Shown here: positions 5,129-43,191 of the stretch, piece after piece | Layout: each line of letters starts with the position of its first letter | Position numbering within the stretch: position 1 is the stretch's first letter | Source: a virus | Direction: 5' to 3' (one strand) | IMG/VR virus record: IMGVR_UViG_3300006143_000014 | Span: 1 to 55,920 of that record | Length of the DNA: 55,920 bases | Program-made: the position numbers and the translations under genes | The notes under the pieces: model-generated | What the model was told of the DNA's origin: nothing | The model's database searches: none | Seen by the model: the letters and a program-made list of their open reading frames with translations, nothing else

Positions 5129-5533
5129 ATGACACTAGAAGATCAATTAAAACAAGAAATTTTGACAAGATATAAAAGTATTAGAGAGTTCTCGGCTATG
5201 ACAGAGATACCATATAGTACGGTAGATTCCGTTTTAAAACGAGGCATCAAAAATTCTGGCATTAATACAGTTCTAAAAATTTTTTCTTTTCTTGACATTG
5301 ATGTGGAAAGTATTCCATCCGGAAAGCTTAAGCATATCAATCGCTTGGAAGAAACAAAAAAATCCCCCAGTACGGACGAATCCGCACCAAGGGAAGATGA
5401 AATTGCTATGTTCAATAAGTTGCTGGATATGCTTATTTCAACAGGCGCTGTCAGAGAGGGAGAGGACATCACTGACCGTCAGGCCGAAGTCCTCGCTGCT
5501 GTTTGCAGAATCCTTAACGCTACCTTCCAATAG
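5129..5533 (+). CDS. CI-like phage repressor (XRE-family HTH)
   Basis: N-terminal HTH (SIREFSAMTEIPYSTVDSVLKRG), AGGAGGTG RBS, and a position next to the integrase module. Confidence 0.85.
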   Translation: MTLEDQLKQEILTRYKSIREFSAMTEIPYSTVDSVLKRGIKNSGINTVLKIFSFLDIDVESIPSGKLKHINRLEETKKSPSTDESAPREDEIAMFNKLLDMLISTGAVREGEDITDRQAEVLAAVCRILNATFQ

Positions 5534-5795
5534 TATTTTGAGTGCCCCCAATACATTATCGGGATGCTTGCAACGGGCCAGCTCCTGGGCGACTCGAAAC
5601 ACATTTGGATAATCTTGATATTTACACATAAAATTATGCCCCCTCTGTTTTGTTCAGTGGGGCTATTATAGGACAACTGTTTTAATTTGTCAAGAGCACT
5701 ATAGAAAATTTGTTCTATTAAACAACCGATTTATTGGACAATTGAAAGTGTAATATATTTCGCCGGACTTGTAAAAATAGAAAGGGGATCAAGAG

Positions 5796-6188
5796 ATGTA
5801 TTGCAGAAACTGCGGCCAGCCGCTCAACCCGCGGGCGGATTATTGCGTTAAGTGCGGCGTGGGCGTGGGGAAGGGGGCAAGCTTTTGCCCAAATTGTGGT
5901 TTCCAGGTTTCTGAAATTGCCGACGTCTGTGTCCGCTGCGGAACGTCTCTTGCAAGAATAGCTCCAAAGTCCAAGGTTTTGGCCGGCCTTTTAGGTATCA
6001 TTTTCGGGTGCTTTGGGGTACATAATTTCTATCTCAACTATGTGGGGAAAGCTGTTGCGCAGCTGCTCATCACGCTTTTGAGTTTTGGGCTTTTGGCGTG
6101 GGTCTCCGCCTTATGGGGGCTCATTGAAGGAATACTTATCCTGACAGGTTCCATCAACAGGTCGAAAAAAGGAGTTCCAATTGAGTAA
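5796..6188 (+). CDS. Double zinc-ribbon plus TM2-domain membrane protein
   Basis: CRNCG..CVKCG..CPNCG..CVRCG followed by the TM2 motif GLLGIIFGCFGVHNFYLNYVGKA. Confidence 0.85.
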   Translation: MYCRNCGQPLNPRADYCVKCGVGVGKGASFCPNCGFQVSEIADVCVRCGTSLARIAPKSKVLAGLLGIIFGCFGVHNFYLNYVGKAVAQLLITLLSFGLLAWVSALWGLIEGILILTGSINRSKKGVPIE

Positions 6189-7533
6189 TGATATGAAGCG
6201 GGTATTTCTTTACGTGCGCGTCAGCACCGAAGAACAGGCTGTCCATGGGCTGTCCATCGAGGCGCAGACCGCCGCCCTGGAAGACTGGGCAAAGGCAAAT
6301 GGGCACAAGGTCGTGGGCCTCTATGTAGACGCTGGAATTTCTGCCCGGAAGCCATCCACGAAACGGCCTGCGCTCCAACGCTTACTTGATGACGTAAGGG
6401 CAGGCAAGGGCAACATGGTTGTATTTACCAAGCTGGACAGGTGGTTTCGGTCGGTGAGCCAATACTACCAGGTGCAGGACGTGTTAGAGGCGCACAATGT
6501 ATCGTGGCGGGCAATCCATGAGGACTACGAGACCGCCACCGCATCCGGGCGCTTAAAGGTCAATATCATGCTCAGCGTGGCCCAGGATGAGGCGGATCGA
6601 ACATCGGAGAGGATCAAGGCAATCAACGAAATGAAGCGTCAGAAGCTGGAGCCGCTTACCGGGCAAATGCCATATGGATATATACTTGAGGGCAAAAAAA
6701 TTGTCAAGGACCCAAAAACGCAAAAGGCCGTAGAGATATTTTTCAAAACGCTGCTTGAAACCGGGTCGGTTTCCGGGTCGCAGCAGGAAGTTTTTGAGCA
6801 GTGCGGGATTGTCCTTAACTATGAGCGGGTGTACCGAATGATGAAAAGCACCGCCTATTATGGGCGGTACTTTAACGCAGATGGTATGGTTCCCCCATAT
6901 GTGACAAAACAGGATTATGATAAGATACAGGAAGCGAGGCGGAAACTTGTAAGAAAATCTCCAAAAAACCATATTTTCCTCTTTTCTGGGCTTATGGTAT
7001 GCGCAGAATGCGGTCGCAGAATGGGCACACGGCGGGCCACGCACTCGAATTACCAATATTATGCTTGCCCGTCTTCATACCGAAAGACGGCGGATTGCAA
7101 TAATAGGGTTTGCATAAACGAAAAGAACATAGAGCAATACATCCTCGATACGCTGGATGAAAAAATAAGGCAAAAAAAAATTGAGTACGAAAAAGAAGCC
7201 GCACAGCGGAAAGAAAAAAATTACAAAGCGGAGATATCTGCTGTGCGCGGAAAGCTAAAGCGGCTCAAAAGCCTTTATATTGAGGACATAATCTCAATAG
7301 AAGATTACAGGGAAGATTATGCTAAGCTGACCGAAAAATTGGAGGAGCTGTCTAAACTGGATAAACCCGAGCCGCAACCTAATTTTGGGACCCTGGATAC
7401 GTTCGTACAGTCCGGATGGAAAGAGGCATACTTTGCCCTTGAAAAAGAGCGCAAAAAGAAAGTTTGGCGTTCTGTTATAAGGGAGATACGGGTCTACCCG
7501 GACCGGCATATTGAGTTTGATTTGGACGTTTAA
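6181..7533 (+). CDS. int: Large serine recombinase (phage integrase)
   Basis: YVRVSTEEQ catalytic-Ser motif, recombinase domain, CAECGRRMG...YYACP zinc ribbon and a C-terminal coiled coil. Confidence 0.95.
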   Translation: MSNDMKRVFLYVRVSTEEQAVHGLSIEAQTAALEDWAKANGHKVVGLYVDAGISARKPSTKRPALQRLLDDVRAGKGNMVVFTKLDRWFRSVSQYYQVQDVLEAHNVSWRAIHEDYETATASGRLKVNIMLSVAQDEADRTSERIKAINEMKRQKLEPLTGQMPYGYILEGKKIVKDPKTQKAVEIFFKTLLETGSVSGSQQEVFEQCGIVLNYERVYRMMKSTAYYGRYFNADGMVPPYVTKQDYDKIQEARRKLVRKSPKNHIFLFSGLMVCAECGRRMGTRRATHSNYQYYACPSSYRKTADCNNRVCINEKNIEQYILDTLDEKIRQKKIEYEKEAAQRKEKNYKAEISAVRGKLKRLKSLYIEDIISIEDYREDYAKLTEKLEELSKLDKPEPQPNFGTLDTFVQSGWKEAYFALEKERKKKVWRSVIREIRVYPDRHIEFDLDV

Positions 7534-11643: not shown

Positions 11644-12363
11644 TTAATCCAACTTTCCCAACCGGTCCAGCACGGTCATGGTCCGGCAGAAGTCCTCGGA
11701 CACGTTCAGCGCCCCGTCCCCGGTGCCCTTGAGCGCACCCTTCTTCACAAGCTTGTCCACCGTGGGCCGGTAGTGGCTGGGCACATCCTCCAGCTTCTCG
11801 TAAATAACAACCATCTCGTCGTCCTCCTTTTTGTCGTCGGGCACAAGGGACCAGTCCGGCCGCCCATAGCCCTTGATTTTTGCGTACCGCAGGGAGTATT
11901 TACACGAGCGCACCGCGCTGGGGCTGCCCGCGTTGCCCTCAATGGTGTGCACGTACCCGTCCTTCACCGCCGCCACCAGCCCCGTATGGCTGGTCACCGT
12001 GGCCGTGCCGAAAAAGATTTGGTCCCCCGGTTGGGGCGTCTGGAAAAACTGCTTCCTTGCCTTGTAGTAGTCCATGGAGTACTTCGTGCCCGCGCCCAGG
12101 GATTTGTTGGGCTGGCACAGCAGCTTTTGGCCCAGCTCCCGCCCAAAGGTGCGCACGAAGCACCAGTCCACGAACACGTCGCACCAGTCGTAGCCGTTTT
12201 TCCGTCCATTGTAGAAGTCCCCCAGGGCGTCCAGATCACGGGCGAACCTGTTCCACAGCCCGCCAGCGTTGGCCCCTGGGTCGTCCAGGGCGGCGTTGGT
12301 CTTCTTGCCCAAGTAGCCCACCTGATCCTCCGCAGTGGCGATGACCCGTTCCGGAGCCGTCAT
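11644..12363 (-). CDS. CHAP-domain endolysin, 239 aa
   Basis: NGYDWCDVFVDWC...SHTGLV shows the Cys/His CHAP signature. An ATGA overlap joins it to the holin stop. Confidence 0.85.
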   Translation of the reverse strand: MTAPERVIATAEDQVGYLGKKTNAALDDPGANAGGLWNRFARDLDALGDFYNGRKNGYDWCDVFVDWCFVRTFGRELGQKLLCQPNKSLGAGTKYSMDYYKARKQFFQTPQPGDQIFFGTATVTSHTGLVAAVKDGYVHTIEGNAGSPSAVRSCKYSLRYAKIKGYGRPDWSLVPDDKKEDDEMVVIYEKLEDVPSHYRPTVDKLVKKGALKGTGDGALNVSEDFCRTMTVLDRLGKLD

Positions 12364-19954: not shown

Positions 19955-20332
19955 CTACTTCTCAATCAGCGGGAAGGTCACGCCGCTCCACCACTCCGTG
20001 CCGTCCGGGTGCTTAATCTGAAACGCCGCGGGGTTGTTGTTGGAGTACATCGTCCGGGTGACCTCCTGCCCCTGCTGGGGGTCATAGTAAGTCACCTGCA
20101 CCCACTCCGGCATGATGAGGGACAAAACCGTGCTCAGCTCTTTTTCCTTCAGAATGCGGCAGGTAATATCCAACCTCCGCTTGGTCGCCACCCGGTTCCG
20201 GCGCAGATCCCCGGTGAGGTCCCGCCCCGCGCCGGGTCCGTCCACGTCGGAGCGCTGCCACTTGAAGCCGCCGTAGGCGATATACGGCAGAATGTCCACG
20301 CCGTCTATCCTGCACACCATTGCCACGTTCAT
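19955..20332 (-). CDS. Small distal-tail (Dit-like) protein, 125 aa
   Basis: First conserved structural ORF after the island that follows the tape measure. The start is uncertain (20332 or 20320). Confidence 0.5.
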   Translation of the reverse strand: MNVAMVCRIDGVDILPYIAYGGFKWQRSDVDGPGAGRDLTGDLRRNRVATKRRLDITCRILKEKELSTVLSLIMPEWVQVTYYDPQQGQEVTRTMYSNNNPAAFQIKHPDGTEWWSGVTFPLIEK

Positions 20333-20395
20333 CACCACCAAAACATAAAATCCCCGCCATCTGAATGCAGATAGCGGGGAGTTCGATGGATTCAA

Positions 20396-20572
20396 TTATT
20401 GCAGCAGCGAGAAGAACCCGAGAACGAGAACACACGCCGCAATCAAGGAGACCACCAGCATAATGAGGTTGTACTTCTGCTGTGCGCTCATGGGGTTTGG
20501 GTTCGCGTGGCGAATACGAATGCCTTTTTCATTCACGGTCAGCTCATAAAGCTTTATCTTTTCCTCCTTCAT
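20396..20572 (-). CDS. Small membrane-anchored protein, 58 aa
   Basis: ATG at 20572 forms an ATGA overlap with the Rha stop. C-terminal TM LIMLVVSLIAACVLVLGFF. Confidence 0.5.
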   Translation of the reverse strand: MKEEKIKLYELTVNEKGIRIRHANPNPMSAQQKYNLIMLVVSLIAACVLVLGFFSLLQ

Positions 20573-21312
20573 GCTGTCGCGCCCCCTTTCAGGAGTCCTC
20601 TCAGCTTTTCTACAGCCCGGTCGTTGTACCGCCACACGGGAATCTGCTTTGCGCTGTGCTTGGACTTGTCCCATACTTCGATGCCATACTCCGCGCTTTT
20701 TAGCCCATGCTGGTTCGCCATCCGGCCTACCATGTTTGCGCTCACGCCGCCCAGAATCTCGCCAACCTCAGCCGCACTGTAGGTCTTCTCGGCCACCGGC
20801 GGAAGCGGAAGCACCGCCTCCCCGCCCGTCAGCTCCGCGCTGGCGTAGTGGGCGCATATCTGCTGGAACGTGGGGATGGGGTTCGTCTGGGCCAGCTTCA
20901 GCCAGACGGACGCTTTCCGCGCCCTGCTGTTGTTCAGCTTGGCTTCGGCCAGGGCGGCCTTGTCCGGCGGGAGCTGCTTGCGCTGGATATGTTCCCGCAT
21001 CTTCTCAAAGGCGGTCACGTAGGCCGCGGTGAACAGCACGCCCTTCTCCCCGGTCATCTTGTTCGCCACCATGTCGCACCCCTTCTTGGTCAGGAGGTAG
21101 CACGGAAGGGCGCGGCCCGTGGTGTCGTAGTAGGTGTGCGGGATGAAAAAGTCACTCGGCTGAAATTTCAGCTCAGTGGAATCATCCATAGTCTGGATAT
21201 ACCCGCGAATATCGGCAAGCAGGTTCTTGTGTTGCTTCTCCACCATCCGGGCCACTTCCCGGCTGTCCACCACCTCGTTTTTCTTGTAGGTGAATACTTG
21301 CAGGCCGTTCAT
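20569..21312 (-). CDS. Rha-family phage regulatory protein
   Basis: VVDSREVARMVEKQHKNLLADIRGYI matches the Phage_pRha N-terminal signature. Confidence 0.85.
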   Translation of the reverse strand: MNGLQVFTYKKNEVVDSREVARMVEKQHKNLLADIRGYIQTMDDSTELKFQPSDFFIPHTYYDTTGRALPCYLLTKKGCDMVANKMTGEKGVLFTAAYVTAFEKMREHIQRKQLPPDKAALAEAKLNNSRARKASVWLKLAQTNPIPTFQQICAHYASAELTGGEAVLPLPPVAEKTYSAAEVGEILGGVSANMVGRMANQHGLKSAEYGIEVWDKSKHSAKQIPVWRYNDRAVEKLRGLLKGGATA

Positions 21313-21533
21313 GCGGGCACCCCCTTTTTAGCCTGACACTCCGCACAGTCAATGTCTGCTTGGAAGTCTTGGCAGATACAGGATAAGAGGTCGCTTGCGT
21401 AGGACATAGAATCTACCATCTTGTCGTCATCATCCATTGCGAAGCGGATTGTCTCTAACAGGGAACCAAAGCAAATCAGACACCCCATGATATCGTCCAG
21501 CTTAGAGGCGGACATAACAAGGTTTTTGCTCAT
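21309..21533 (-). CDS. Hypothetical Cys-containing acidic protein, 74 aa
   Basis: ORF coupled to its neighbours by overlapping stop and start codons. Confidence 0.5.
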   Translation of the reverse strand: MSKNLVMSASKLDDIMGCLICFGSLLETIRFAMDDDDKMVDSMSYASDLLSCICQDFQADIDCAECQAKKGVPA

Positions 21534-21739
21534 GCCGTCGCCCTCCCCTCTGCTTTCGCAGCACGGTAGCCTTTGGCGCAGCCATAGTCGAACGCCAGAC
21601 AGATAATGTCAACAGGCGTTTCCGCTGCGCCCTTCGCCAAGTCCAGCGTTTCTCTGACGCTCATTTGGTAGGGGCTTGCGAGTGAAACATTCATTTTCGT
21701 CCGCTCGATGTACTTCTTCATCTTCTCGATCTCGGTCAT
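21530..21739 (-). CDS. Hypothetical protein, 69 aa
   Basis: ATG at 21739 lies behind AAGGAGGA. MTEIEKMKKYIERTKMN.... Confidence 0.5.
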   Translation of the reverse strand: MTEIEKMKKYIERTKMNVSLASPYQMSVRETLDLAKGAAETPVDIICLAFDYGCAKGYRAAKAEGRATA

Positions 21740-21848
21740 TTTGTCATTTCCTCCTTGCAATTACGGGGGAGGAGTGATACAATGGTGGTATCAATCCTCC
21801 GGGGTTGGTTTAGGGTTTCGGCGTTGCTTTGACGGGCTGCCGGAACCC

Positions 21849-22004
21849 TTACTTTTTTTCTTCCAGGTACTCCAGGACAATCATTCGGATGAGCCCACTT
21901 ACAGAAGTTCCCTTTTTCTCTGCAAGCGCTCTAAGTTTCTCCATGATTTCTGGCGAGAAGAATACATTCGTTCTTTCGCTGTTGGCCTTTGGCTTTGGGG
22001 ACAC
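21849..22004 (-). CDS. Ribbon-helix-helix (CopG/Arc-type) protein, 51 aa
   Basis: GTG at 22004 lies behind GAGGAGGTG. ...TNVFFSPEIMEKLRALAEKKGTSVSGLIRMIVLEYLEE. It is below the ORF-track cutoff. Confidence 0.65.
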   Translation of the reverse strand: MSPKPKANSERTNVFFSPEIMEKLRALAEKKGTSVSGLIRMIVLEYLEEKK

Positions 22005-22026
22005 TGTTTTCACCTCCTCGCCACTT

Positions 22027-22055
22027 ATAATATCACCATTTTATCATCATGTCAA
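22027..22055 (-). promoter_or_regulatory. Promoter TTGACA-17-TATTAT driving the RHH/Rha operon
   Basis: Consensus hexamers read on the minus strand, 23 nt upstream of the RHH start. Confidence 0.55.
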
Positions 22056-22145
22056 GGTGATTTTATAAAATAATTTGGTGACTAAAGGCTCTCGTGTGTG
22101 GACAATCTGCGCTCATTGTGGTATTCTTCCTTTGGGGTGAGGAAT

Positions 22146-22457
22146 ATGGCAAACTATACAACCAGCACAAGCGACAAATCTAAGGATGAGGCGCTCAAGC
22201 GGTGGAAGTTAGGAGCTTTAGGGCTCTTTGGTTTGGAGTACTTTTATGTTGGAAGGGTAAAGGCAGGAATCGTCCGGGTTTTGATTGGAGTTTTTCTGAT
22301 ATTAGGTATTTTTAGCGGACTTATTGGAGGCAGCATTGACTTTCTGAGCGCAATAATTGGGTTACCGATTTTGTGGGCAATTATTGCCACACCAAATTTT
22401 TACAGACTAAAAATGGGGACATTTCGTGATAACGTTGGGAACCCATTAAGAGAATAA
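22146..22457 (+). CDS. TM2-like membrane protein, 103 aa
   Basis: ATG at 22146 lies behind GGGGTGAGGA. LGLFGLEYFYVGRVKAGIVRVLIGVF. Confidence 0.65.
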   Translation: MANYTTSTSDKSKDEALKRWKLGALGLFGLEYFYVGRVKAGIVRVLIGVFLILGIFSGLIGGSIDFLSAIIGLPILWAIIATPNFYRLKMGTFRDNVGNPLRE

Positions 22458-22498
22458 AGCAACAAGCCCTCTGCTGATTTTTAAAAGATGGTGATGAT

Positions 22499-23086
22499 AT
22501 GGGAATATTTTTTGCTTTCTTTGAGCTTTTTAATGCCATGTTTGCCGCATTTAAAATCTTTTTGCTTTTAATACCAGTCTTAATTATTATAATTGTTTTA
22601 ATTTTAGTTCAGGGGAAGAAAAACAGGGACAAGGCAAAAGAGATTCAAGCGCAACAGAAATCTTACAGATATTGTCGCAACTGCGGGCAAACACTGAGCG
22701 CGAATTCAACTATATGCGCCAGTTGTGGTGCACGGGCTGGAACCGGGAAAAGATATTGCCCTCGGTGTGGGAACAAGACAGATGAGCTTGCTGTGATTTG
22801 CGTGAATTGTGGGATTCCTCTTGAAAAGACATCTTTGCGTGATGTTTCTCCTAAGTCGAAAGTCGCAGCAGGATTGTTTGGGATTTTGTTTGGAAGTTTA
22901 GGAGTACATAATTTTTACCTTGGATATACACTTAAAGCAGTTTCACAAGTTATAATTACTGTATTTTGCTTTATATTCGGCCTGTTTTTCGGAAATTTCA
23001 TTGTGGCTATATGGGGATTGATTGAAGGAATCATGATACTGGCTGGTGGGATTTCAAAAGATGCAAACGGAAGGGTGCTATCCTAA
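22499..23086 (+). CDS. Zinc-ribbon plus TM2-domain membrane protein
   Basis: CRNCG..CASCG..CPRCG..CVNCG, then GLFGILFGSLGVHNFYLGY. Paralog of 5796..6188. Confidence 0.8.
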   Translation: MGIFFAFFELFNAMFAAFKIFLLLIPVLIIIIVLILVQGKKNRDKAKEIQAQQKSYRYCRNCGQTLSANSTICASCGARAGTGKRYCPRCGNKTDELAVICVNCGIPLEKTSLRDVSPKSKVAAGLFGILFGSLGVHNFYLGYTLKAVSQVIITVFCFIFGLFFGNFIVAIWGLIEGIMILAGGISKDANGRVLS

Positions 23087-23097
23087 AATTAGATACG

Positions 23098-23550
23098 ATG
23101 AAGGGAGCGATTTCTGTGTTCTGCCAAAAGTGCGGTACAAGCATTCCAGATAACAGCGAAAAGTGCCCCAATTGCGGTGCTCTGCGCGATGGGCTGAAAT
23201 ATTGCAAATATTGTGGAAAAATTATTGATAAAGAATGTGTTGTCTGCCCGAAATGCGGAAAGCAGGTAGAAGAAATAAGGGGCGGACAACCAAATATCGT
23301 CATCAACAATTCAAATAGCAACCAAAACGTCAATCAAAACGCGATGATTGCTGGCGGTCGTCTCAGAAACAAGTGGGTTGCGCTTATCTTGTGTATCTTG
23401 CTGGGAGTCTTTGGGGCACACAAATTCTATGAGGGAAAGATCGGAATGGGGATATTGTATTTGTTCACCTTTGGCCTATTGGGCATTGGGTGGCTTGTTG
23501 ATATTTTTGTCCTTGCTTTTAAGCCAAATCCCTATATCGTATACGCCTAA
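23098..23550 (+). CDS. Zinc-ribbon plus TM2-domain membrane protein
   Basis: CQKCG..CPNCG..CKYCG..CPKCG, then ILLGVFGAHKFYEGKIGMGILYL. Confidence 0.8.
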   Translation: MKGAISVFCQKCGTSIPDNSEKCPNCGALRDGLKYCKYCGKIIDKECVVCPKCGKQVEEIRGGQPNIVINNSNSNQNVNQNAMIAGGRLRNKWVALILCILLGVFGAHKFYEGKIGMGILYLFTFGLLGIGWLVDIFVLAFKPNPYIVYA

Positions 23551-23554
23551 AAAA

Positions 23555-23593
23555 CAGCCCTCCGCTGAAAATCAGCGGAGGGCTGCTTTTTTG
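23555..23593. terminator. Strong rho-independent terminator
   Basis: Perfect 14-bp stem CAGCCCTCCGCTGA-aaa-TCAGCGGAGGGCTG followed by CTTTTTTG. Confidence 0.85.
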
Positions 23594-23768
23594 TTAAAAT
23601 CCAAAGTTATGGGCCTGATTTACAACAATTTCATAGTCATCATATTCAACAACGTGATAGTCATTCCCAACAGGGCGATAGAACTCAATCGTTACATACA
23701 CCTCTAATCCTTAAAGAGTGCCCCCTCCACGTTTTCGCGGAGGGGGTATTGTTTTTCTTAAATTTCCG

Positions 23769-24455
23769 CTATGCCGTTTTCTCTGGCAGGAATGCGGCTG
23801 GGTTGTCAAGAATCGCTTTCACGCCTTGGTAGTCCTGGCCCAGCTGAACCAGTCCCTGGATGATGCTCTCATACCGGGTAACTTCCCGCATCTGCTGGGG
23901 CGTCAGCAACTCCCGAACATTGAAGTCTTTCGGTTTGTCGTACATTTCCCGCAGCTGCTTCGCGTTGTAACCCGTCACGTGCTTATATACCAGGTCGGTG
24001 TACTGCTTATAGGCCCACTTTTTATTGGGGCTCTCCGGGAGGGCCTCTTTGAGAATGTCAGTGAACAGACGGCGTTCAGCCTTAGACCTGGCCCGGATAA
24101 TTTTCATCTCTCGGTAACGCTTTTCTGCCTCAATGAAGTACCGGCGGATCATCTTCCCCATATCACTTCGTTCAAGCATCGCCATTTCTTTAGCGGTGTC
24201 CATTGTTACGATGTAATCTACCAGGGTTTGACGACCGTCTTTTTTGACGACCGTCACATAATCTCTGTTTTCGGCCGCGTCAACATCTTCCAATCTGCGT
24301 CTTGCCCAATGTGAATACTCAGTTTTAACTTTGAGTGCCGCCCATAATTCACGGCTATTCACTACTTGCTCATGGAAGTTGCTCCCATCAATGCAGTTCT
24401 TTTCGTAGATAGGAACAATGCTTTTTTCGAGAACTTTCATTTCTTCAAATTTCAT
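23769..24455 (-). CDS. AntA/AntB-type antirepressor-like protein
   Basis: VVNSRELWAALKVKTEYSHWARRRLEDVDAAENRDYV matches the AntA N-terminal pattern. Confidence 0.8.
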   Translation of the reverse strand: MKFEEMKVLEKSIVPIYEKNCIDGSNFHEQVVNSRELWAALKVKTEYSHWARRRLEDVDAAENRDYVTVVKKDGRQTLVDYIVTMDTAKEMAMLERSDMGKMIRRYFIEAEKRYREMKIIRARSKAERRLFTDILKEALPESPNKKWAYKQYTDLVYKHVTGYNAKQLREMYDKPKDFNVRELLTPQQMREVTRYESIIQGLVQLGQDYQGVKAILDNPAAFLPEKTA

Positions 24456-24577
24456 AAAGACATCCTTTCTAATACATTAAGGTTTGAAATCATCAAAATC
24501 TCCGCTATCTGTATTCAGTTGACAAGGTGCGCTGGCTTTCGCCGGTCCAAACCCGCGAACCCGCTTGGTTCACAGGC

Positions 24578-24609
24578 TTGGACTGGCGGCGGCTAACTGC
24601 CGCCCCAGT
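24578..24609 (-). repeat. 32-nt conserved hairpin, copy A (just downstream of the tape-measure stop)
   Basis: TTGGACTGGCGGCGGC-taact-GCCGCCCCAGT. It is identical to 29054..29085 except for the 5-nt loop. Confidence 0.8.
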
Positions 24610-24625
24610 GTTGAAGCTTTGCCGC

Positions 24626-27600
24626 TCAGGTATTTTGCAGCGACTTTCCGTACATCATGTTTCGCCGGTTCTGCATGGCCGTGGTCTGCGCGGCGGCCTT
24701 GGCCCAGTCGATACTGATGGGCCGGTCGCCGTTCTCGTTGATGGCGTTCACAATCATTTGGCCCACTTGCTGCCCCATCGCAAGCATAGCGTTTATGATG
24801 TCAGAATTGTTCGCATCTTGGTCTCCCTGGCCGGACACATTGATTGAATCTGCATTTGCCCCACCATAGACGGGCTGAATAGAAGCAAAGAAATCTTCGT
24901 GAGCAGAGAGCTTGGGTTCCACTGGCTCGATGTTCCCCAGGGCGCGGGACATGGAATCGGCCAGGTCGTTGGCGGCGTTCACCGCCAAGTAGCTGTTGTC
25001 CCGAATCCCGCTTGCCATCAGCTTGAGCATATCGGGCATATAGGTGTGGAAGTCGCTCAGCGGGCCCACGTCCGGCTCGGAGAAGTGAACGCGGTCACGA
25101 ATGCTCTGCGCAAGGGCGGTTGCCGCTCCGGCCACCGCGCCTTTTGCGACTCCCTGCATACCAGCGGCAAGACTCTTGCAGATGTCCTCGCCCCAGCCTG
25201 TAGCTTCCTTTATAACGTCTTCCATGGGGCGTCGTATGCTGTCCGCGACGCCTTCAAAATCAATGCCCGCCTGCGTCTGAATTTCCTCTGACTTTCCATG
25301 AACTTCGTCTTTCAGCTCCCCCATCAACCGCCCGGTCTCCGTGTTGGTTTCGCTGAATGCACTTGTAATGGTTTTCTTGACCTCTCCAAACTGCGTCCCG
25401 GCGTCAGTATTGATTCCGCCCCAAGTTGTTCCCAAGTCAGTCCTGATGCCGTTCCATTTGGTATTGGTTTCAACGCTGGTTCCGTCCCATGCGCCGATAA
25501 CAGCTCCTTTTACTGACGCAAACTGTATCACGGCGCTGGTATTGATGCCCGTCCAAGCAGCCTCCAGATTGTTTTTGATGAAGTTCCACTTTCCGTCCGT
25601 TTCTGTATTAGTTTCTTCCCACGCTTTTCCTATTTCGTTTTTCGTGTTTCCAAATTTTTCTGTTGCATTTCCCGTTATTCCATCCCAGATTGCGCCAAGC
25701 CCCTCTGTGATAGTTCCCCACGGGTCCAGGATGAAGCCTCTCAGCCCTTCGACTGCGCCGCTAAAGAAATCAATGATTCCCTGCCATCCCTCTTTGATGC
25801 CCTCGAGAATGCCGGCGGAGATATTTATCCCGACATCATTTTTCATGACCTCCGACGGCGAGTGGATTCCGAACAGCCCCTTAATCGCAGACATGAACAG
25901 ATCGAAGATATTCCGCTTAATCCATCCTCCGATGCCGCCGCCTGCCTCAAATTCGGCCCAGATGCCGTCCCAAAGGCCCTTGACGATGTTCGCGCCCACT
26001 TCCATAATCCCGGAAACGTCGATGACTTTCATCTTGGCGCTCATAAATTCGCCCAGGAGCTGCCCCCACTTGGTCAGCAGCGTGTCCCAGTCGATGTTTT
26101 CCAGGAACTCGGCGATGTGCTTACCGATGGAATCCCAGTCCACCTTCTGCATGAACTCGATCATGAAGTCCAGGGCGGCTTCGATCCCCTTGCTCAGCAC
26201 CCGGCCCGTCTCGGCCCAGTCTATCTTGTCAAAGAACTCGTTGACCTTTTGGGCAATCCCCGCGGCGATTTTCTTTATGTTTGGCCCAATCGTGTCAATC
26301 AGCCCGCCCAGCGCGCCCACGGCGGCGTTGATGCCCGCCGCAATCACATTGGTCAGCCCCGCGAACACCGCAACCCAGTCAATGCCGATGAGGAAATTCC
26401 CGATGTCCCGTCCGATCTGCGGCCAGTCGATGTGGGAAATGATCTCCACCGCGAACTTCAGCGCCGTAACCACCAAATTGCCCAGGGTTTTCCCCAGTCC
26501 GGGCCAGTCCACGTCATTCCAAGCCCTGTTGATCGCCTCATAGACCTGCCGCGCCATATCCTCCCAGTTCCAGTCTTGCAGGAAGGAGTCGATGGCCTGC
26601 TTCAGCGCGGCCAGCCCGTTTGTGATGATGCTCAGCGCCCCGTAAATGGCCCCGTACCAGTCCACATTGTTCAAAAACTCGGCCAGCTTCGCGCCCAGAA
26701 CGCCCCAGTTGGTTTCCGCAATGGCGGTGCTGATGGTGTCAAACAGGCCGGTGATGAACTTGGAGACCGCCTCCGCCGCCCGTGTGGCGTCCAGCTCGTC
26801 CAAAAATCCGTTGATGGCCCGGGCGATGTCCATCCCAATCTCGTGCCATTTCAGCGTCGTGGCAAAGCCGTAGATGAAGTCGAACAGCGCGTTCCACTCC
26901 GCGGCGAAGGTCCTGCCCAGAAGATCCCAGTCCACGGTGTCAAAAATGCCGTTCAGCCCGTCGGCCACCTTGCTACCCAGGTTCTCAAAATCGAACTTGT
27001 CCAAAAAGCCGTAGGCCACGTTCAGTCCGTTGTTGATGAGCGTGCCCAGCTTTTCTCCCCAGGCGTAGGAATCCCAGGCGTCCACCACTTTGTTGAGCTT
27101 TTCCGCCACCAGCTCGCCCACGGACCGCCATTCGCCATTCTCAATGGCCTCCCGAATCTGGCGTACCCAGTCGAACTGATCCTGGTCAATCTCCACTTCC
27201 TCGAACATGGAGCCGAAATCAGAGGCCGCGCCCCCGCCGCCCCCGGCGGGGTTGTCCAGAATGGTCAGCTCGTCGATGCCCAGCAGGAATTTTTGGGTGG
27301 CCTTGGCCGCGGCGTTGGCCGCGTCGCCGTACTCCACCGCGTGCTTCTTGGCCTGGGTGTAGACGCTTTTGCCCGTGAGCATGGCAAAGGCCTTGCCAAT
27401 CACGTTGATGAGGGCCACAAACTTGTCAATGAGAAAGTCGATGGCCGGGGCCACCGCCTGGATGAGCGGCGCGGCCATAGCCCCCAGGCTGTTCTTTAAG
27501 TACAGTGCGCTGGTGGCAAGGGAGTTCATGGCCGGGGCGAACTGAGTGCCCACCAGCTTGCTGTACTGGTACAGGTTCTCAATGCCGATTTTGAACCCGT

Positions 27601-28996
27601 CGGTCACCGCCTTGATGGCCTCCCGGACCGCCCGGTAAAAGGCGATGCGGCCAATGGCGCTTTTCCACTTGGCAAATGCGTCCAGCGCATTTTTGAATGG
27701 CCGGGTGAACCTGGAAACCAGCCCCTGCCCGATGGACTTCAGCCCCGCGCCGATTTTGTTCAGCCCGGAGCGCAGCAGGTCTTTCAGCGACGCGGCCAGG
27801 TTCCTTGCCGCGCCAGCCACCGCTTCCAGCCCTTTCTTTGCCACAGAAAAGGCGGACTGGCCCAGCTTTTTCATCTCGCCGCCTATCTTTTTCGCCGCCA
27901 GCACCACGCCGCCCAGGGCCGCCGCAATCACCGGGTGGGCGGCCACAAACCCCAGCGCCTTGCTGGTCAGCCCCTCAAACGCGCCGCCCAGGGCACTGAC
28001 GGACGACTGTGCGCCTTTTGGAATCAATGCCGTTACATTTTTTTCCATCCCGCCCAGCTTTGTTTTTACAATGTCGCTCAGGACATTTTTCAGGCCGTCC
28101 GCCGCCCCTGTGGCGTCCACGATATGGTCCTTCAGCCGCAGCAGGAGGTTTACTTTCTTTTCCAGCGAGGTCTCCGATTCCACCAGCTCGGTCCCGGAGT
28201 CCTGGGCCTGGCCCGCCTCGTCCTGCAACTGCGCAAGCTGTTCTTTCAGCTTTTGTATCTGCGCGGTGTAGGTGGCGACCTGGGACTGGTTTCCCTTCTC
28301 AAAGGCCCCGCGCAGCTTCTCCTGCAAGCCGTCCAGCTTTACATTGAGGATGGCCGCTTGGTCGTTCAGTTCCGCCATCCGGCTGACCGCCTCGTCAATG
28401 CTCTTGGCGTTGCCCACCAGCTCCCCCAGCGTACTGCCCTTGAGCTTGGCCTTGACGCCTGCCCAGGGGTCCTCGGGCCGCTGCGTCTTCTCGGCGGCCT
28501 GGGCCGCGTTCACCGCCACGGCGGAAAGGTGCTCCCGCTGCCGGATCAGCCCGTCTAAAATCCCCTGCTGCTCCCGGAGCTGCTGGTTGAGCTGTTCAAT
28601 CATCTGTGCGCCCTGTTCTTTGTCGTGGGCGAACCCCAGCATTCTGATCTGCTCGTTCAGCTCGGAGATATTGGCCTGGGCCTTTTCAATCTTCTGATTT
28701 ACGCTCTCAATTTTCTCCCCGGCCTTGTCCGCGTCCACGCCGGCCGCCGGGGCCGGATTGACGGAGCCTGCCGCCCGGTCCAGCGCCTCTTTTTTCCGCC
28801 GGACTTTGGTCTGTGCGCCGGCGTCTTCCGCGGCCTCTCCCACGCCGCGAATCTGCTCCGAGATGTTTCCGAATCCGGCGCTCTCTTTTTTCAGCCGCTT
28901 GAGCGCATCGGCAAGGGCGCTGACCTTCTGTTCCGCCTCGCTGGACGACGCCTCGATTTCAATTTCCAGGGTATCGACGGTATTCCCCTCTGCCAT
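24626..28996 (-). CDS. Tail tape measure protein, 1456 aa
   Basis: Size, N-terminal coiled coils, central TM/Gly-rich region, repeated W/F-rich motifs, and position after the G/GT chaperones. Confidence 0.9.
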   Translation of the reverse strand: MAEGNTVDTLEIEIEASSSEAEQKVSALADALKRLKKESAGFGNISEQIRGVGEAAEDAGAQTKVRRKKEALDRAAGSVNPAPAAGVDADKAGEKIESVNQKIEKAQANISELNEQIRMLGFAHDKEQGAQMIEQLNQQLREQQGILDGLIRQREHLSAVAVNAAQAAEKTQRPEDPWAGVKAKLKGSTLGELVGNAKSIDEAVSRMAELNDQAAILNVKLDGLQEKLRGAFEKGNQSQVATYTAQIQKLKEQLAQLQDEAGQAQDSGTELVESETSLEKKVNLLLRLKDHIVDATGAADGLKNVLSDIVKTKLGGMEKNVTALIPKGAQSSVSALGGAFEGLTSKALGFVAAHPVIAAALGGVVLAAKKIGGEMKKLGQSAFSVAKKGLEAVAGAARNLAASLKDLLRSGLNKIGAGLKSIGQGLVSRFTRPFKNALDAFAKWKSAIGRIAFYRAVREAIKAVTDGFKIGIENLYQYSKLVGTQFAPAMNSLATSALYLKNSLGAMAAPLIQAVAPAIDFLIDKFVALINVIGKAFAMLTGKSVYTQAKKHAVEYGDAANAAAKATQKFLLGIDELTILDNPAGGGGGAASDFGSMFEEVEIDQDQFDWVRQIREAIENGEWRSVGELVAEKLNKVVDAWDSYAWGEKLGTLINNGLNVAYGFLDKFDFENLGSKVADGLNGIFDTVDWDLLGRTFAAEWNALFDFIYGFATTLKWHEIGMDIARAINGFLDELDATRAAEAVSKFITGLFDTISTAIAETNWGVLGAKLAEFLNNVDWYGAIYGALSIITNGLAALKQAIDSFLQDWNWEDMARQVYEAINRAWNDVDWPGLGKTLGNLVVTALKFAVEIISHIDWPQIGRDIGNFLIGIDWVAVFAGLTNVIAAGINAAVGALGGLIDTIGPNIKKIAAGIAQKVNEFFDKIDWAETGRVLSKGIEAALDFMIEFMQKVDWDSIGKHIAEFLENIDWDTLLTKWGQLLGEFMSAKMKVIDVSGIMEVGANIVKGLWDGIWAEFEAGGGIGGWIKRNIFDLFMSAIKGLFGIHSPSEVMKNDVGINISAGILEGIKEGWQGIIDFFSGAVEGLRGFILDPWGTITEGLGAIWDGITGNATEKFGNTKNEIGKAWEETNTETDGKWNFIKNNLEAAWTGINTSAVIQFASVKGAVIGAWDGTSVETNTKWNGIRTDLGTTWGGINTDAGTQFGEVKKTITSAFSETNTETGRLMGELKDEVHGKSEEIQTQAGIDFEGVADSIRRPMEDVIKEATGWGEDICKSLAAGMQGVAKGAVAGAATALAQSIRDRVHFSEPDVGPLSDFHTYMPDMLKLMASGIRDNSYLAVNAANDLADSMSRALGNIEPVEPKLSAHEDFFASIQPVYGGANADSINVSGQGDQDANNSDIINAMLAMGQQVGQMIVNAINENGDRPISIDWAKAAAQTTAMQNRRNMMYGKSLQNT

Positions 28997-29053
28997 GCGC
29001 TCACCACCTTGCCGGTTATCTCTCCACTCCAACGGGCCGGAGCTTCCGGCCCA

Positions 29054-40820: not shown

Positions 40821-41254
40821 TACAGCCGTCTCCTCGCCCACTCTGCCATCAAAAGTGCCTCTGCCATCCCATCATGGTCTTTCTTGCACCTGTCTGTCCA
40901 GCGCAGGCTCATGTCCGGGAACAGCCGCTTACACACGGCAATGGAGCTATTCTTGTCCCCGGTTACCTGAAACTCCTTCTTCCACTTTCCAGGCGTCACC
41001 AGCTCATATGGGATAGAGTAGGCGGTCAGAAGCCCCTGGATAAATCCGAAGTTCTCCCCGAACTTGAACATGGAGGTCACGCCCTGGCCCGGCATGGCTC
41101 CCACACGCTCCAGGCAGCATTTTGCATTCCCGCCAACATCGTGGAGAAGGTCACGGTATCGCTCCTCGTCAAACGTCACCACGTCAGCATTCCCATTCTC
41201 CCGGATAACTGCCATCGCCCCGTCCTTGCCAGGGTCTACGCCTATGTAGATCAT
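40820..41254 (-). CDS. RuvC-like Holliday junction resolvase, copy 1
   Basis: IYIGVDPGKDGA and DHDGMAEALLMA motifs. Paralog of 50467..50907. Confidence 0.8.
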   Translation of the reverse strand: MIYIGVDPGKDGAMAVIRENGNADVVTFDEERYRDLLHDVGGNAKCCLERVGAMPGQGVTSMFKFGENFGFIQGLLTAYSIPYELVTPGKWKKEFQVTGDKNSSIAVCKRLFPDMSLRWTDRCKKDHDGMAEALLMAEWARRRL

Positions 41255-41296
41255 ACATCGCTCCTTTTTTGATTTTGAAAAATTTTGGGAAACACG

Positions 41297-41851: not shown

Positions 41852-41860
41852 TTTAGGGGG

Positions 41861-42667: not shown

Positions 42668-42862
42668 CTACTCCCCGGCTCTGTGCTGGTCTGTGCGCTG
42701 GTTGTCTCGCTCTATGGTTTCCTGTATGGCCCGCTTGATAAAGCCGTTGACGCTCTCGCCCTGGGCCTGTGCGTGGGCCTGGTCAGCTCTCCAGGCTTTC
42801 CTTGATGCGCTGGAGCATCTTCCCGATCTTTCTTTGGAAGGCGGCTTTGTTTTCGGTCTCAA
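42668..42862 (-). pseudogene. Possible decayed Arc/RHH paralog
   Basis: Only the C-terminal half (GESVNGFIKRAIQETIERDNQ) matches the paralogs at 42925..43155 and 43629..43811. Confidence 0.3.
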
Positions 42863-43155: not shown

Positions 43156-43191
43156 GACATCACCTCTATAAAGTATTATAGCCCACAGTAG

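What the first reader, a model, noticed from the sequence alone, without database searches (positions are those of the whole stretch)
20396..24625. A 4.2 kb accessory island inserted between the tape-measure gene and the distal tail genes
In siphophages the tape-measure gene is normally followed directly by Dit and Tal. Here the two are separated by several genes:
- An AntA-type antirepressor-like gene.
- A hairpin and a possible micro-ORF.
- A strong terminator.
- Three opposite-strand zinc-ribbon/TM2 membrane protein genes in a markedly AT-rich segment.
- A minus-strand unit with its own consensus promoter (TTGACA-17-TATTAT). It encodes an RHH protein, two small proteins, a Rha-family regulator and a small membrane protein.

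The RHH/Rha unit reads straight into the tail-tip genes. Two anti-repressor or regulatory families plus membrane proteins, placed in the middle of the tail operon, suggest prophage-expressed morons. These could serve superinfection exclusion, cross-talk with other prophages, or defence. The island could also uncouple tail-tip expression from the rest of the late operon.
Basis: partly seen in the sequence, partly recalled or inferred. Interest (0 to 1): 0.65.

Follow-up and report, generated by a model that had tools for sequence, protein, structure and literature searches.

The report
Swappable accessory-gene slot in phage tail operon
The 4.2 kb stretch is a real accessory ("moron") island splitting the tail genes of a gut Clostridia phage, of the same general kind as the P22 "ant moron", and it sits in a swappable slot whose two conserved ends are complementary to each other.

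Summary
The tape-measure gene (29032..24626, minus strand) and the first distal-tail gene (DUF6711, 20320..19955) are separated by about 4.3 kb. In 80 of 80 related IMG/VR contigs these two genes abut: 78 have a 2-30 nt gap and 2 have a split tape-measure ORF.

The island holds:
- an AntA gene;
- a bidirectional terminator;
- three plus-strand membrane-protein genes at about 40% GC (two are zinc-ribbon+TM2, the third is only TM2-like);
- an operon RHH-p69-p74-Rha-small membrane protein, driven by a TTGACA-17-TATTAT promoter.

This operon does not read straight into the tail genes. A conserved intrinsic terminator (20380..20351) follows it.

The island is bounded by a conserved left end and a terminator right end that are mutually complementary (31 of 38 nt). 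The left motif occurs once per contig in 107 viral contigs, usually just upstream of the tape-measure gene. It brackets cargo of 0.6-5.4 kb: lipoproteins, membrane proteins, and Bro/Rha/AntA cassettes.

The closest known relatives are the P22 "ant moron" (immI plus sieA) and the HK97 gp15 moron.

Functions (superinfection exclusion, antirepressor-type regulation) are inferred, not shown. PADLOC, Rfam and PDB searches gave nothing.

The parts
24626..29032 (-). Tape-measure gene (upstream flank, not part of the island)
   Evidence: PHROG 1535/58/1272 tape-measure families, E=3e-30 to 1e-23.
24540..24585 (-). 17-bp-stem hairpin just after the TMP stop, with no U tract
   Evidence: The 131-nt stretch folds at -52.8 kcal/mol, z=-5.5.
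24484..24530 (-). Left end (L) of the slot: GCACCTTGTCAACTGAATACAGATAGCGGAGATTTTGATGATTTCAA
   Evidence: It is a 38-nt inverted repeat with 20358-20395, 31 of 38 matching. The motif gave 3 matches against 0.01 expected. The L motif is conserved in 107 IMG/VR contigs, once per contig.
23769..24455 (-). antA-type antirepressor-like gene (228 aa)
   Evidence: PF08346, E=4.6e-19; PHROG 5817 anti-repressor, E=2.6e-30. The exact protein occurs on 20 contigs.
23720..23745 (-). GC-rich hairpin after antA
   Evidence: -26.6 kcal/mol, z=-4.2.
23594..23701 (-). Possible 35-aa micro-ORF ending 9 nt before the terminator stem (unverified)
   Evidence: ORF listed. Only sub-threshold leader-like Rfam hits (31 bits against a 50-bit cut-off).
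23555..23585 (.). Bidirectional intrinsic terminator shared by antA and the plus-strand operon
   Evidence: 14-bp stem with U runs on both strands. -35.7 and -32.7 kcal/mol, z=-8.4 and -9.0.
23098..23550 (+). Zinc-ribbon + TM2 membrane protein (150 aa; public gene aa)
   Evidence: PF05154, E=3.6e-19; Zn_Ribbon_1, E=2e-11.
22499..23086 (+). Zinc-ribbon + TM2 membrane protein (195 aa; public gene aa)
   Evidence: PF05154, E=2.9e-8; Zn_ribbon_3, E=1.2e-9.
22465..22481 (.). Half-copy of the bidirectional terminator arm, lying at the variant A/B breakpoint (22484)
   Evidence: Repeat I5, 16 of 17 complementary. Breakpoint.
22146..22457 (+). TM2-like membrane protein without a zinc ribbon (103 aa)
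   Evidence: PHROG 10772, E=1.2e-6. Pfam TM2 only E=0.73. Aligned with its paralogues.
22099..22127 (+). Promoter-like site TGGACA-17-TATTCT (with TG) for the plus-strand operon
   Evidence: 9 of 12 matches. A TGTCCA/TGGACA motif recurs beside the RHH promoter in L085, L098 and L238 (read directly).
22025..22068 (.). Operator-like inverted repeat TTATAATATCACC/GGTGATTTTATAA bracketing the -10 and -35 of the RHH promoter
   Evidence: 12 of 13 complementary. Other cassettes carry their own palindromes over the promoter.
22027..22055 (-). Promoter TTGACA-17-TATTAT with extended -10
   Evidence: 11 of 12 matches.
21849..22013 (-). Ribbon-helix-helix protein (54 aa; public gene aa)
   Evidence: PF07878, E=2.4e-8; PF01402, E=1.9e-5; weak hits to Arc-like PHROGs.
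21530..21739 (-). p69, the small conserved hallmark protein of the cassette family
   Evidence: No Pfam, PHROG or PADLOC hit. 159 homologues found, none named. AF2 model is three helices, pLDDT 69, with no PDB match.
21309..21533 (-). p74, a variable small protein
   Evidence: No family hit. Homologues in L102, L099 and L113.
20569..21312 (-). Rha-family regulator or antirepressor-like protein (247 aa) with a conserved C-terminal domain
   Evidence: PF09669, E=2.1e-24; PHROG 1726 anti-repressor, E=1.3e-52. The C-terminal domain is 68-81% identical in cassettes that have a Bro-N N-terminus instead.
20396..20572 (-). 58-aa protein with a C-terminal hydrophobic helix
   Evidence: Sequence. 68% identical homologue in the L102 cassette. 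68-aa analogues follow Bro/Rha genes elsewhere.
20351..20395 (-). Right end (R) of the slot: intrinsic terminator plus upstream flank, complementary to L
   Evidence: Terminator scan. -29.9 kcal/mol, z=-5.2. Conserved in L085 and L098.
19955..20320 (-). DUF6711 gene, the first distal-tail gene (downstream flank)
   Evidence: PF20458, E=7e-8; PHROG 1194, E=1e-23. It directly follows the TMP in 78 of 80 relatives.

Best explanation
The island is a compound moron. It fills the one hypervariable accessory-gene slot that this lineage of Oscillospiraceae siphophages keeps inside its tail operon. It is not needed to build the tail.

From the sequence signals it contains three transcription units:
1. 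antA lies on the late strand and ends at a hairpin plus a strong bidirectional terminator.
2. A plus-strand, AT-rich operon encodes one TM2-like and two zinc-ribbon/TM2 membrane proteins. It has the same orientation as the repressor, a fourth zinc-ribbon/TM2 gene and the integrase module, and it ends at the same terminator. I infer that these are prophage-expressed envelope proteins acting at the membrane against incoming phage, most likely by superinfection exclusion. This is by analogy with HK97 gp15 and P22 SieA.
3. An operon RHH-p69-p74-Rha-small membrane protein is driven by a near-consensus housekeeping promoter bracketed by an inverted repeat, and it ends at a conserved terminator. I infer autoregulation by the RHH protein, and an immI-like regulatory or antirepressor role for Rha and AntA.

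The slot is delimited by a conserved left end and a terminator right end that travel with the cargo. Late transcription must read through the internal terminators to reach the distal tail genes. How it does so is unknown.

Shown: the anatomy, the accessory status, modular gain and loss, and family membership of the domains. Inferred: expression timing, autoregulation, exclusion activity and antirepressor activity.
For: - Absence: the island is missing from the TMP|DUF6711 junction in 80 of 80 relatives. The closest TMP relative, L098/L185 (57% identity), has the next gene overlapping the TMP stop.
- Variation among near-identical phages: variant B lacks the TM2-like gene, p69, p74 and most of Rha. 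It keeps a 37-aa Rha remnant and carries a different RHH gene with a perfect TTGACA-17-TATAAT promoter.
- Homologous cassettes at other positions: before the chaperones and TMP (L098); after the lysis genes (L102); between chaperone and TMP (L183, L232-L234, L238-L240); between the capsid and head-closure genes (L235-L237).
- L motif: once per contig in 107 IMG/VR contigs. There are 53 distinct slots of 0.67-5.4 kb. Most are followed by a TMP-sized ORF, and their cargo is lipoproteins, membrane proteins or Bro/Rha/AntA genes.
- Promoters: promoter-like sites occur within 140 nt downstream of L in 24 of 45 distinct slots, against 7.0 +/- 2.2 in shuffles. Palindromes overlap these promoters.
- Composition and terminators.
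- Lysogeny-direction paralogue: a zinc-ribbon/TM2 gene lies next to the CI-like HTH gene and the serine integrase.
- Literature precedent: HK97 gp15 is a membrane moron between the tail chaperone and TMP genes that blocks DNA entry (PMC3594210). The P22 ant moron combines RHH repressors, an antirepressor and sieA in a hypervariable region of the late operon before the tailspike gene (PMC2629481).
Against: - There are no expression data. All promoters and terminators are consensus or energy predictions.
- PADLOC found no known defence protein.
- No bacterial or phage TM2-domain protein with a demonstrated function turned up.
- The AntA and Rha families are named after antirepressors, but activity is untested for almost all members. 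An operon under constant RHH autoregulation would express Rha in lysogens. That fits poorly with an antirepressor aimed at the phage's own repressor.
- The strong bidirectional terminator and the R terminator should block late transcription of essential tail genes, and I found no antiterminator gene.
- Only the plus-strand part has deviant GC.
Confidence: 0.6

Rival explanations
1. The conserved L and R ends form a transcript-origin switch. In late transcripts that start upstream, the L RNA pairs with the upstream flank, 5' arm and loop of the R terminator. That prevents the terminator from forming, so the downstream tail genes are transcribed. Transcripts that start at the cargo's own promoter, which lies downstream of L, lack L and stop at R. 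This would insulate the lethal late genes in the lysogen.
For: - L is always 5' of R on the late strand and is complementary to the flank, 5' arm and loop of R. In the window 31 of 38 nt match.
- L and R co-vary within elements across at least 6 loop variants, with indels. One element has a different stem (L235: CAGATTGACGG) and its L tracks it.
- The mean duplex energy with an element's own R is -35.7 kcal/mol, against -26.5 with other elements' R (permutation p about 1e-5).
- The predicted L:R duplex (-30 to -42 kcal/mol; 238 Watson-Crick and 14 G-U pairs) is always more stable than the terminator hairpin (-22 to -29 kcal/mol in the 10 elements; 34 of 196 pairs are wobble).
- Cargo promoters lie downstream of the L core.
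Against: - The pairing would have to act over 0.6-5.4 kb, within the fraction of a second before the 3' arm is made.
- In the window, L-to-R differences show no bias towards G-U-compatible changes (1 of 7, read directly). In group 2 the count is 3 of 4. Overall there is no bias.
- Compound slots, including this window, contain further strong terminators that L cannot neutralise (23555-23585; L250 7017-7044). Some other read-through mechanism is therefore needed anyway.
- Co-variation could come from gene conversion or shared descent. The permutation test ignores relatedness.
Confidence: 0.2
2. The island is a non-autonomous mobile DNA element. In this reading it is a cargo cassette bounded by terminal inverted repeats that moves between intergenic sites of phage late operons. 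It would be moved in trans by an unknown recombinase, or the short conserved ends would serve as homology for the phage's own RecT-type recombinase.
For: - Both ends travel with the cargo to at least five kinds of site: TMP|DUF6711, chaperone|TMP, before the chaperones, capsid|head-closure, and before a head-tail connector gene.
- Empty sites have only 2-30 nt between the flanking genes.
- The ends are inverted repeats of about 25-45 nt.
- Within one lineage, identical ends enclose five different cargo sizes.
- The phage encodes RecT-like and SSB genes.
Against: - No transposase or recombinase lies in the island.
- No target-site duplication is visible in the flanks.
- There is exactly one L motif per contig in 107 contigs, so no sign of proliferation.
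- Most copies occupy the same genomic position, upstream of the TMP. That fits vertical inheritance of a slot with internal turnover.
- No contig has the segment in the inverted orientation.
Confidence: 0.25
3. The RHH-...-Rha operon is a toxin-antitoxin-like or abortive-infection module. A small repressor would hold a toxic Bro/Rha/KilA-type protein in check. Its role would be to protect the lysogen from other phages or to stabilise the prophage, not to act as an antirepressor.
For: - Small-repressor plus Bro/Ant pairs were flagged as toxin-antitoxin-like two-gene modules, and some Ant/KilA proteins are toxic (PMC2701414).
- The RHH protein gives weak hits to RelB-like antitoxin models (E=2.3e-5, but 24.5 bits against a 50-bit cut-off).
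- The operon has a constitutive-type promoter with an operator-like repeat.
- From my own knowledge, not checked here: the KilA-N protein BstA is a prophage abortive-infection defence.
Against: - No toxin domain was found, and PADLOC gave no hit.
- The RHH and Rha genes are separated by two other genes. The cassette's most conserved partner, p69, has no known fold.
- The RHH score is below the NCBIfam cut-off.
Confidence: 0.15
4. The genes are a fixed structural or assembly part of this lineage's tail module.
For: Their position is inside the tail operon. antA is co-oriented with the tail genes.
Against: - They are absent in 80 of 80 relatives at this junction.
- They vary between 95-98% identical phages.
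- The domain families are DNA-binding regulators and membrane proteins, not virion proteins.
Confidence: 0.02

Closest known systems
The 'ant moron' (immI region plus sieA) of P22-like phages (PMC2629481)
   Same: - It is a hypervariable, non-morphogenetic region inserted in the late operon just before the distal tail (tailspike) gene.
- It combines small ribbon-helix-helix repressors (Arc, Mnt), an antirepressor gene, a membrane superinfection-exclusion gene and genes of unknown function.
- Content differs among close relatives (ten types in sixteen genomes).
- Late transcripts must cross it to reach the tail gene.
   Different: - The host and virion type differ: Gram-positive Oscillospiraceae siphovirus against enterobacterial podovirus.
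- The antirepressor-like proteins here are AntA and Rha family, not P22 Ant.
- No Mnt-type divergent second repressor and no sar RNA were identified.
- The membrane proteins are TM2/zinc-ribbon, not SieA.
- The slot has conserved, mutually complementary ends, which are not described for P22.
HK97 gp15 moron (PMC3594210)
   Same: - It is an independently transcribed insertion in the tail operon next to the tape-measure gene, between the tail chaperone and TMP genes. That is exactly where the L/R slot lies in most relatives.
- It encodes a small inner-membrane protein expressed from the prophage.
- It meets the moron criteria of own promoter, own terminator and deviant GC.
   Different: - It is a single gene and shares no homology.
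- The exclusion function is demonstrated for gp15 and only inferred here.
- The window's slot lies after the TMP, not before it.
P1/P7 immI antirepressor AntA/AntB (source of Pfam PF08346) and phi80/P22 Rha (PF09669)
   Same: The N-terminal domains match these Pfam families well above their cut-offs.
   Different: - Only the N-terminal DNA-binding-type domain is shared.
- The C-terminal parts have no Pfam match.
- No c4-type antisense RNA context is present, and activity is untested.
Mobile insertion cassettes and other non-autonomous elements bounded by terminal inverted repeats
   Same: Passenger genes lie between inverted-repeat ends, with no transposase inside.
   Different: - No target-site duplication is seen.
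- There is one copy per genome, mostly at one conserved position.
- One end doubles as a transcription terminator.

Membership tests
Moron (Juhala/Hendrix definition as summarised in PMC3594210) | Lies between two genes that are adjacent in related phages | tested here: met
   In 78 of 80 relatives the TMP stop lies 2-30 nt from the DUF6711 start. The other 2 have a split TMP.
Moron (Juhala/Hendrix definition as summarised in PMC3594210) | Own promoter and own terminator | tested here: met
   Met at sequence level only. Promoter: TTGACA-17-TATTAT, 11 of 12. Terminators: 23555-23585 and 20351-20380. Function is untested.
Moron (Juhala/Hendrix definition as summarised in PMC3594210) | Nucleotide composition differs from the surrounding genes | tested here: met
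   GC is 0.37-0.43 at 22.2-23.6 kb against 0.55-0.65 in the flanks. This does not hold for the Rha region, which is at 0.62.
Moron (Juhala/Hendrix definition as summarised in PMC3594210) | Expressed from the repressed prophage | not testable with these tools
   This needs RNA-seq of a lysogen. Only gene orientation supports it: the plus-strand genes run the same way as the repressor and integrase.
P22-type immI / ant moron | Ribbon-helix-helix repressor controlling the antirepressor promoter | tested here: inconclusive
   An RHH domain is present (PF07878, 2.4e-8). Hits to Arc-like PHROGs are only weak (6e-4, 8e-3). An operator-like inverted repeat brackets the promoter. Binding is untested.
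P22-type immI / ant moron | Antirepressor homologous to P22 Ant | tested here: not met
   Pfam finds AntA and Rha domains only, with no P22 antirepressor family.
P22-type immI / ant moron | Hypervariable insertion in the late operon immediately upstream of distal tail genes | tested here: met
P22-type immI / ant moron | Second, divergently transcribed maintenance repressor (Mnt) and antisense sar RNA | tested here: not met
   The divergent unit encodes membrane proteins, not a repressor. There is no Rfam match. The sar RNA was not specifically searched for.
AntA/AntB antirepressor family (PF08346) | AntA domain above the Pfam gathering score | tested here: met
   69.2 bits against a cut-off of 27.
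AntA/AntB antirepressor family (PF08346) | Inactivates a phage repressor | not testable with these tools
   This needs binding or induction assays against the CI-like protein at 5129-5533.
Rha family (PF09669 / TIGR02681) | Rha domain above the curated cut-offs | tested here: met
   86.4 bits against 29.9 (Pfam); 62.3 against 45.95 (NCBIfam).
TM2 domain proteins (PF05154) | TM2 two-helix domain above the gathering score | tested here: met
   Two of the three genes pass (69.2 and 34.2 bits against 27.9). The third does not (E=0.73).
Known anti-phage defence systems (PADLOC-DB 2.0) | Any component protein matching a defence model | tested here: not met
   The best E-values are 1.2e-3 to 8e-2, to candidate families only, and on partial stretches.
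Type II toxin-antitoxin module | Antitoxin and toxin matching curated models | tested here: not met
   The RHH protein scores 24.5 bits against a 50-bit cut-off for RelB-like antitoxin. No toxin domain was found.
Transposon or mobile insertion cassette bounded by terminal inverted repeats | Terminal inverted repeats | tested here: met
   31 of 38 nt in the window, and 17-29 bp in ten other elements.
Transposon or mobile insertion cassette bounded by terminal inverted repeats | Target-site duplication, and multiple copies or a cognate transposase | tested here: not met
   No duplication is seen in the flanks. There is one L motif per contig in 107 contigs. No transposase domain lies in the island.

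The most novel reading that the evidence does not exclude
The conserved, co-varying L and R ends make the slot a self-insulating expression cassette. A left-end RNA segment, present only in late transcripts, acts over 0.6-5 kb as an antiterminator of the right-end terminator. Tail genes are then read in the lytic cycle, while transcripts from the cargo's own promoter are stopped in the lysogen. This would be a built-in, factor-independent solution to placing prophage-expressed genes inside an essential late operon. It would also define a new, recognisable class of cargo slot in gut Clostridia phages.
Probability: 0.2. Interest if true: 0.7.

Novelty: new variant of a known kind. Interest (0 to 1): 0.42.

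Why it matters
As a moron island the finding is expected biology. Temperate phages often carry prophage-expressed membrane and regulatory genes inside their tail operons.

Three things add value:
1. The island belongs to a recognisable slot. A simple DNA motif marks it in more than 100 uncultured gut-phage contigs. The motif can be used to harvest candidate superinfection-exclusion and lysogenic-conversion genes (lipoproteins, TM2 and zinc-ribbon membrane proteins) from Oscillospiraceae phages, whose biology is almost unstudied.
2. The recurrent RHH-p69-Bro/Rha cassette points to an uncharacterised regulatory module with an unnamed hallmark protein.
3. The complementary, co-varying ends raise a testable question. 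How can a phage without a known antiterminator transcribe essential tail genes across terminators that insulate its morons?

Tried and rejected
- Nucleotide search of 50,697 phage records with the whole region found only short 72-86% patches in Ruminococcus and Faecalibacterium phages. No related annotated phage turned up.
- A search with the TMP C-terminus in IMG/VR gave only two distant loci.
- Exact-protein look-ups failed for two ORFs, probably because the first-start ORF differs from the called gene.
- PADLOC, NCBIfam and Pfam at E up to 10 on the C-terminal halves and small proteins found no further domains.
- Rfam gave only sub-threshold leader or terminator look-alikes at the bidirectional terminator.
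- The p69 AlphaFold model had moderate confidence (pLDDT 69) and gave no PDB fold match at E<=0.001.
- Sequence searches of Rha, AntA and the TM2 protein against the PDB gave nothing useful.
- No late antiterminator gene was recognised among ten candidate regulatory ORFs.
- I aligned the L and R ends (A2) for a column-wise pair count. Indels in the loop segment made one fixed column pairing invalid. I used own-versus-cross duplex energies instead.
- I considered an invertible segment. I rejected it because all contigs show one orientation and no invertase gene is adjacent.
- I considered an insertion into the loop of an ancestral hairpin. I rejected it because empty sites have only 2-30 nt between the genes.
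- Literature searches for a described antitermination or insulation design of morons, and for Bro/Rha cassettes in Oscillospiraceae phage tail modules, found nothing specific. This covers only the held library.

Full report
**Anatomy**

The phage late genes run on the minus strand of the window. The tape-measure gene is 29032..24626 (PHROG tape-measure families). Reading downstream on the late strand, the features are:
- a 17-bp-stem hairpin without a U tract (24585..24540);
- an AntA-type gene, 24455..23769 (PF08346, E=4.6e-19);
- a GC-rich hairpin (23745..23720);
- a possible 35-codon ORF (23701..23594);
- a very strong bidirectional terminator, 23585..23555 (-35.7 and -32.7 kcal/mol, z=-8.4 and -9.0);
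- three genes on the opposite strand: 22146..22457, 22499..23086 and 23098..23550;
- a minus-strand operon made of an RHH gene (22013..21849), p69 (21739..21530), p74 (21533..21309), a Rha gene (21312..20569) and a 58-codon gene with a hydrophobic C-terminus (20572..20396).

The first distal-tail gene, DUF6711/PHROG 1194, starts at 20320.

GC falls to 0.37-0.43 across the plus-strand genes. It is 0.55-0.65 around them.

**Corrections to the observation**

Two of the plus-strand proteins are zinc-ribbon + TM2. The third has no zinc ribbon and is TM2-like only through PHROG 10772.

The RHH/Rha operon does not read straight into the tail genes. An intrinsic terminator lies at 20380..20351, between the last operon gene and DUF6711. 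It has a 13-bp stem followed by TTTTATGTTTT.

**Is it an insertion?**

I collected 80 IMG/VR loci encoding DUF6711 relatives at 56-77% identity.
- In 78 of them the gene starts 2-30 nt after the stop of a large upstream ORF.
- The other two have a tape-measure ORF split in two, not an insertion.
- None carries the island's proteins at that junction.
- The closest tape-measure relative (57% identity; L098, which is Colidextribacter sp. OB.20, L185) has the next gene overlapping the TMP stop.

Exact-protein look-ups found the same phage in several metagenomes. They also found a variant with 95-98% identical flanks. In that variant 1757 bp are replaced by 327 bp. The lost segment holds the TM2-like gene, the RHH gene, p69, p74 and most of Rha. 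The replacement carries a different RHH gene behind a perfect TTGACA-17-TATAAT promoter, and a 37-codon Rha remnant remains.

The region is therefore accessory and in flux. The idea that it is a fixed structural part of the tail module is rejected.

**A cassette family**

Homologues of p69, Rha and AntA show that the minus-strand operon is one version of a recurrent cassette. The cassette runs as follows:
- a strong housekeeping-type promoter overlapped by a palindrome;
- a small RHH protein;
- p69 (p72 in some versions);
- a variable protein of 53-74 aa;
- a Bro-N or Rha protein, often with the same C-terminal domain;
- a small protein with a C-terminal membrane helix;
- a terminator.

The cassette occurs at several positions:
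- before the chaperone and TMP genes (L098);
- after the lysis genes (L102);
- between the chaperone and TMP genes (L183, L232-L234, L238-L240);
- between the capsid and head-closure genes (L235-L237).

L183 and L238 repeat the window's compound layout. An Ant/Rha-type gene comes first, then opposite-strand membrane or lipoprotein cargo, then the RHH cassette.

p69 has 159 detectable homologues. None is named and none has a Pfam domain. Its model is a three-helix protein of moderate confidence with no PDB match.

**Conserved ends**

A 38-nt inverted repeat (31 of 38 matching) sits exactly at the two borders of the island, at 24484-24521 and 20358-20395. The motif gave 3 matches in the window against 0.01 expected.

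The right arm is the upstream flank plus 5' arm of the terminator. The same pair of ends bounds the homologous cassettes elsewhere:
- The left end reads GCACCTTGNNAACT, then a variable segment, then AGATAGCGGA(G/A)AT...
- The right end is the terminator, CCGCTATCT-loop-GGCGGGGATTTT.

The left motif occurs once per contig in 107 IMG/VR contigs. For 62 of them a complement with at most 4 mismatches in 21-23 nt lies 0.63-4.1 kb downstream. In most of these it is followed within about 120-150 nt by a TMP-sized ORF.

Across 53 distinct slots the cargo ranges from a single lipoprotein gene to the 5.4-kb compound of L183. The usual position, between the tail chaperone and TMP genes, is where the original HK97 gp15 moron lies (PMC3594210). 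The window's slot lies after the TMP instead.

**The ends co-vary**

The variable segment of L matches the loop of its own R in each lineage: GAATAC, TCATAG, TCATATCG, TTATATTG, TAATAG. In L235 the terminator has a different stem, and its L follows that stem.
- Predicted L:R duplexes with the element's own partner average -35.7 kcal/mol.
- Duplexes with other elements' partners average -26.5 kcal/mol (permutation p about 1e-5). This test ignores relatedness.
- The duplex is almost entirely Watson-Crick and always more stable than the terminator hairpin, which is richer in wobble pairs.
- Cargo promoters lie downstream of the L core. In 24 of 45 distinct slots a promoter-like site lies within 140 nt, against 7.0 +/- 2.2 in shuffles (example).

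This is the layout expected if L RNA, present only in late transcripts, prevents R from terminating them while cargo transcripts stop at R.

Several points count against that reading:
- the distance over which the pairing would have to act;
- no bias of L/R differences towards G-U-compatible changes;
- further strong terminators inside compound slots, such as the window's 23555-23585, or L250 7017-7044.

Gene conversion, or transposon-like ends, could also explain the co-variation. However, there is no transposase, no target-site duplication, and only one copy per genome. I therefore keep the switch as the most novel reading that is not excluded, at about 0.2.

**Function**

Nothing in the island matches a known defence protein, a curated toxin or antitoxin above its cut-off, or an Rfam family.

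The plus-strand genes share orientation with the lysogeny module. That module contains a weak Cro/CI-type HTH gene (5129-5533), a fourth zinc-ribbon/TM2 paralogue (5796-6188, 31-35% identical to the island copies) and a large serine recombinase (6181-7533).

Three observations make prophage-expressed envelope proteins acting against incoming phage the best guess:
- this shared orientation;
- the low GC of the plus-strand genes;
- the predominance of lipoprotein and membrane cargo in sister slots.

It remains a guess by analogy with HK97 gp15 and P22 SieA.

The RHH-Rha operon and antA resemble the immI part of the P22 ant moron in layout. That region also combines RHH repressors, an antirepressor, a membrane exclusion gene and unknown genes. 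It lies in a fast-changing region of the late operon before the tail gene, and it is thought to influence read-through into that gene (PMC2629481). The proteins themselves are not homologous to P22 Ant. A toxin-antitoxin-like reading of small-repressor plus Bro/Ant pairs has also been proposed (PMC2701414).

**Host and verdict**

The nearest genome hits are Oscillospiraceae: Colidextribacter, Pseudoflavonifractor and Flintibacter.

The kind is known. The recognisable slot with complementary, co-varying ends and the unnamed RHH-p69-Bro/Rha cassette are the new elements. I found no description of them in the literature I could search.

Noticed in passing
window 5129-7533 (+): This is the lysogeny module. 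It holds a weak Cro/CI-type HTH gene (5129-5533), a fourth zinc-ribbon/TM2 gene (5796-6188, overlapping the next gene) and a large serine recombinase (6181-7533). The TM2 paralogue beside the integrase suggests these membrane proteins are a regular lysogeny-phase function of this phage.
   Followed up: partly
window ~40820-48024: A second interruption of the late region lies between the small-terminase-like gene (47380-48024, -) and the large terminase (39198-40820, -). It contains plus-strand genes for DUF7678, an LPD25-domain protein (45034-46245) and an FtsK/SpoIIIE-type ATPase. It also holds an RHH-like 76-aa gene (42925-43155, PHROG 13890) and a second copy of a RusA-like Holliday-junction resolvase (40820-41254; the other copy is at 50467-50907).
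   Followed up: partly
window 22465-22481 and 22484: A half-copy of the bidirectional terminator arm sits just after the TM2-like gene. It lies exactly where variant B diverges from the window. This suggests that terminator hairpins are the breakpoints of module exchange.
   Followed up: partly
window 23594-23701 (-) with 23555-23585: The possible micro-ORF stops 9 nt before the terminator stem. Rfam gives sub-threshold leader-like hits here (rnk and His leaders, 31 bits against cut-offs of 49-50). An attenuator-like arrangement, in which translation masks the terminator, is conceivable but untested.
   Followed up: no
L095 1423-2298 versus window 11644-12363: A near-identical phage carries an Amidase_2+SPOR endolysin with an r1t-type holin in place of the window's CHAP endolysin. 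This is a lysis-cassette swap.
   Followed up: no
L184 1700-2311: In one cassette the gene after p69 is an AT-rich (GC3 0.25), 203-aa protein whose sequence looks like a T5orf172/GIY-YIG-type domain. It takes the place of the usual Bro/Rha protein. The domain assignment is by eye only.
   Followed up: no
L183 7794-9890: The sister compound slot carries a 620-aa AT-rich (GC3 0.33) multi-pass membrane protein and what looks like a restriction-endonuclease fragment as opposite-strand cargo. These are candidate defence genes.
   Followed up: no
L102 2667-3280: A RelE/YafQ-like toxin and antitoxin pair, a lipoprotein and a 328-aa membrane protein lie next to the homologous cassette at the end of another phage's lysis region. 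The toxin assignment is by eye only.
   Followed up: no
window 24540-24585 (-): A very stable 17-bp hairpin without a U tract lies directly after the TMP stop codon and just upstream of the left end motif. Its role is unknown.
   Followed up: no
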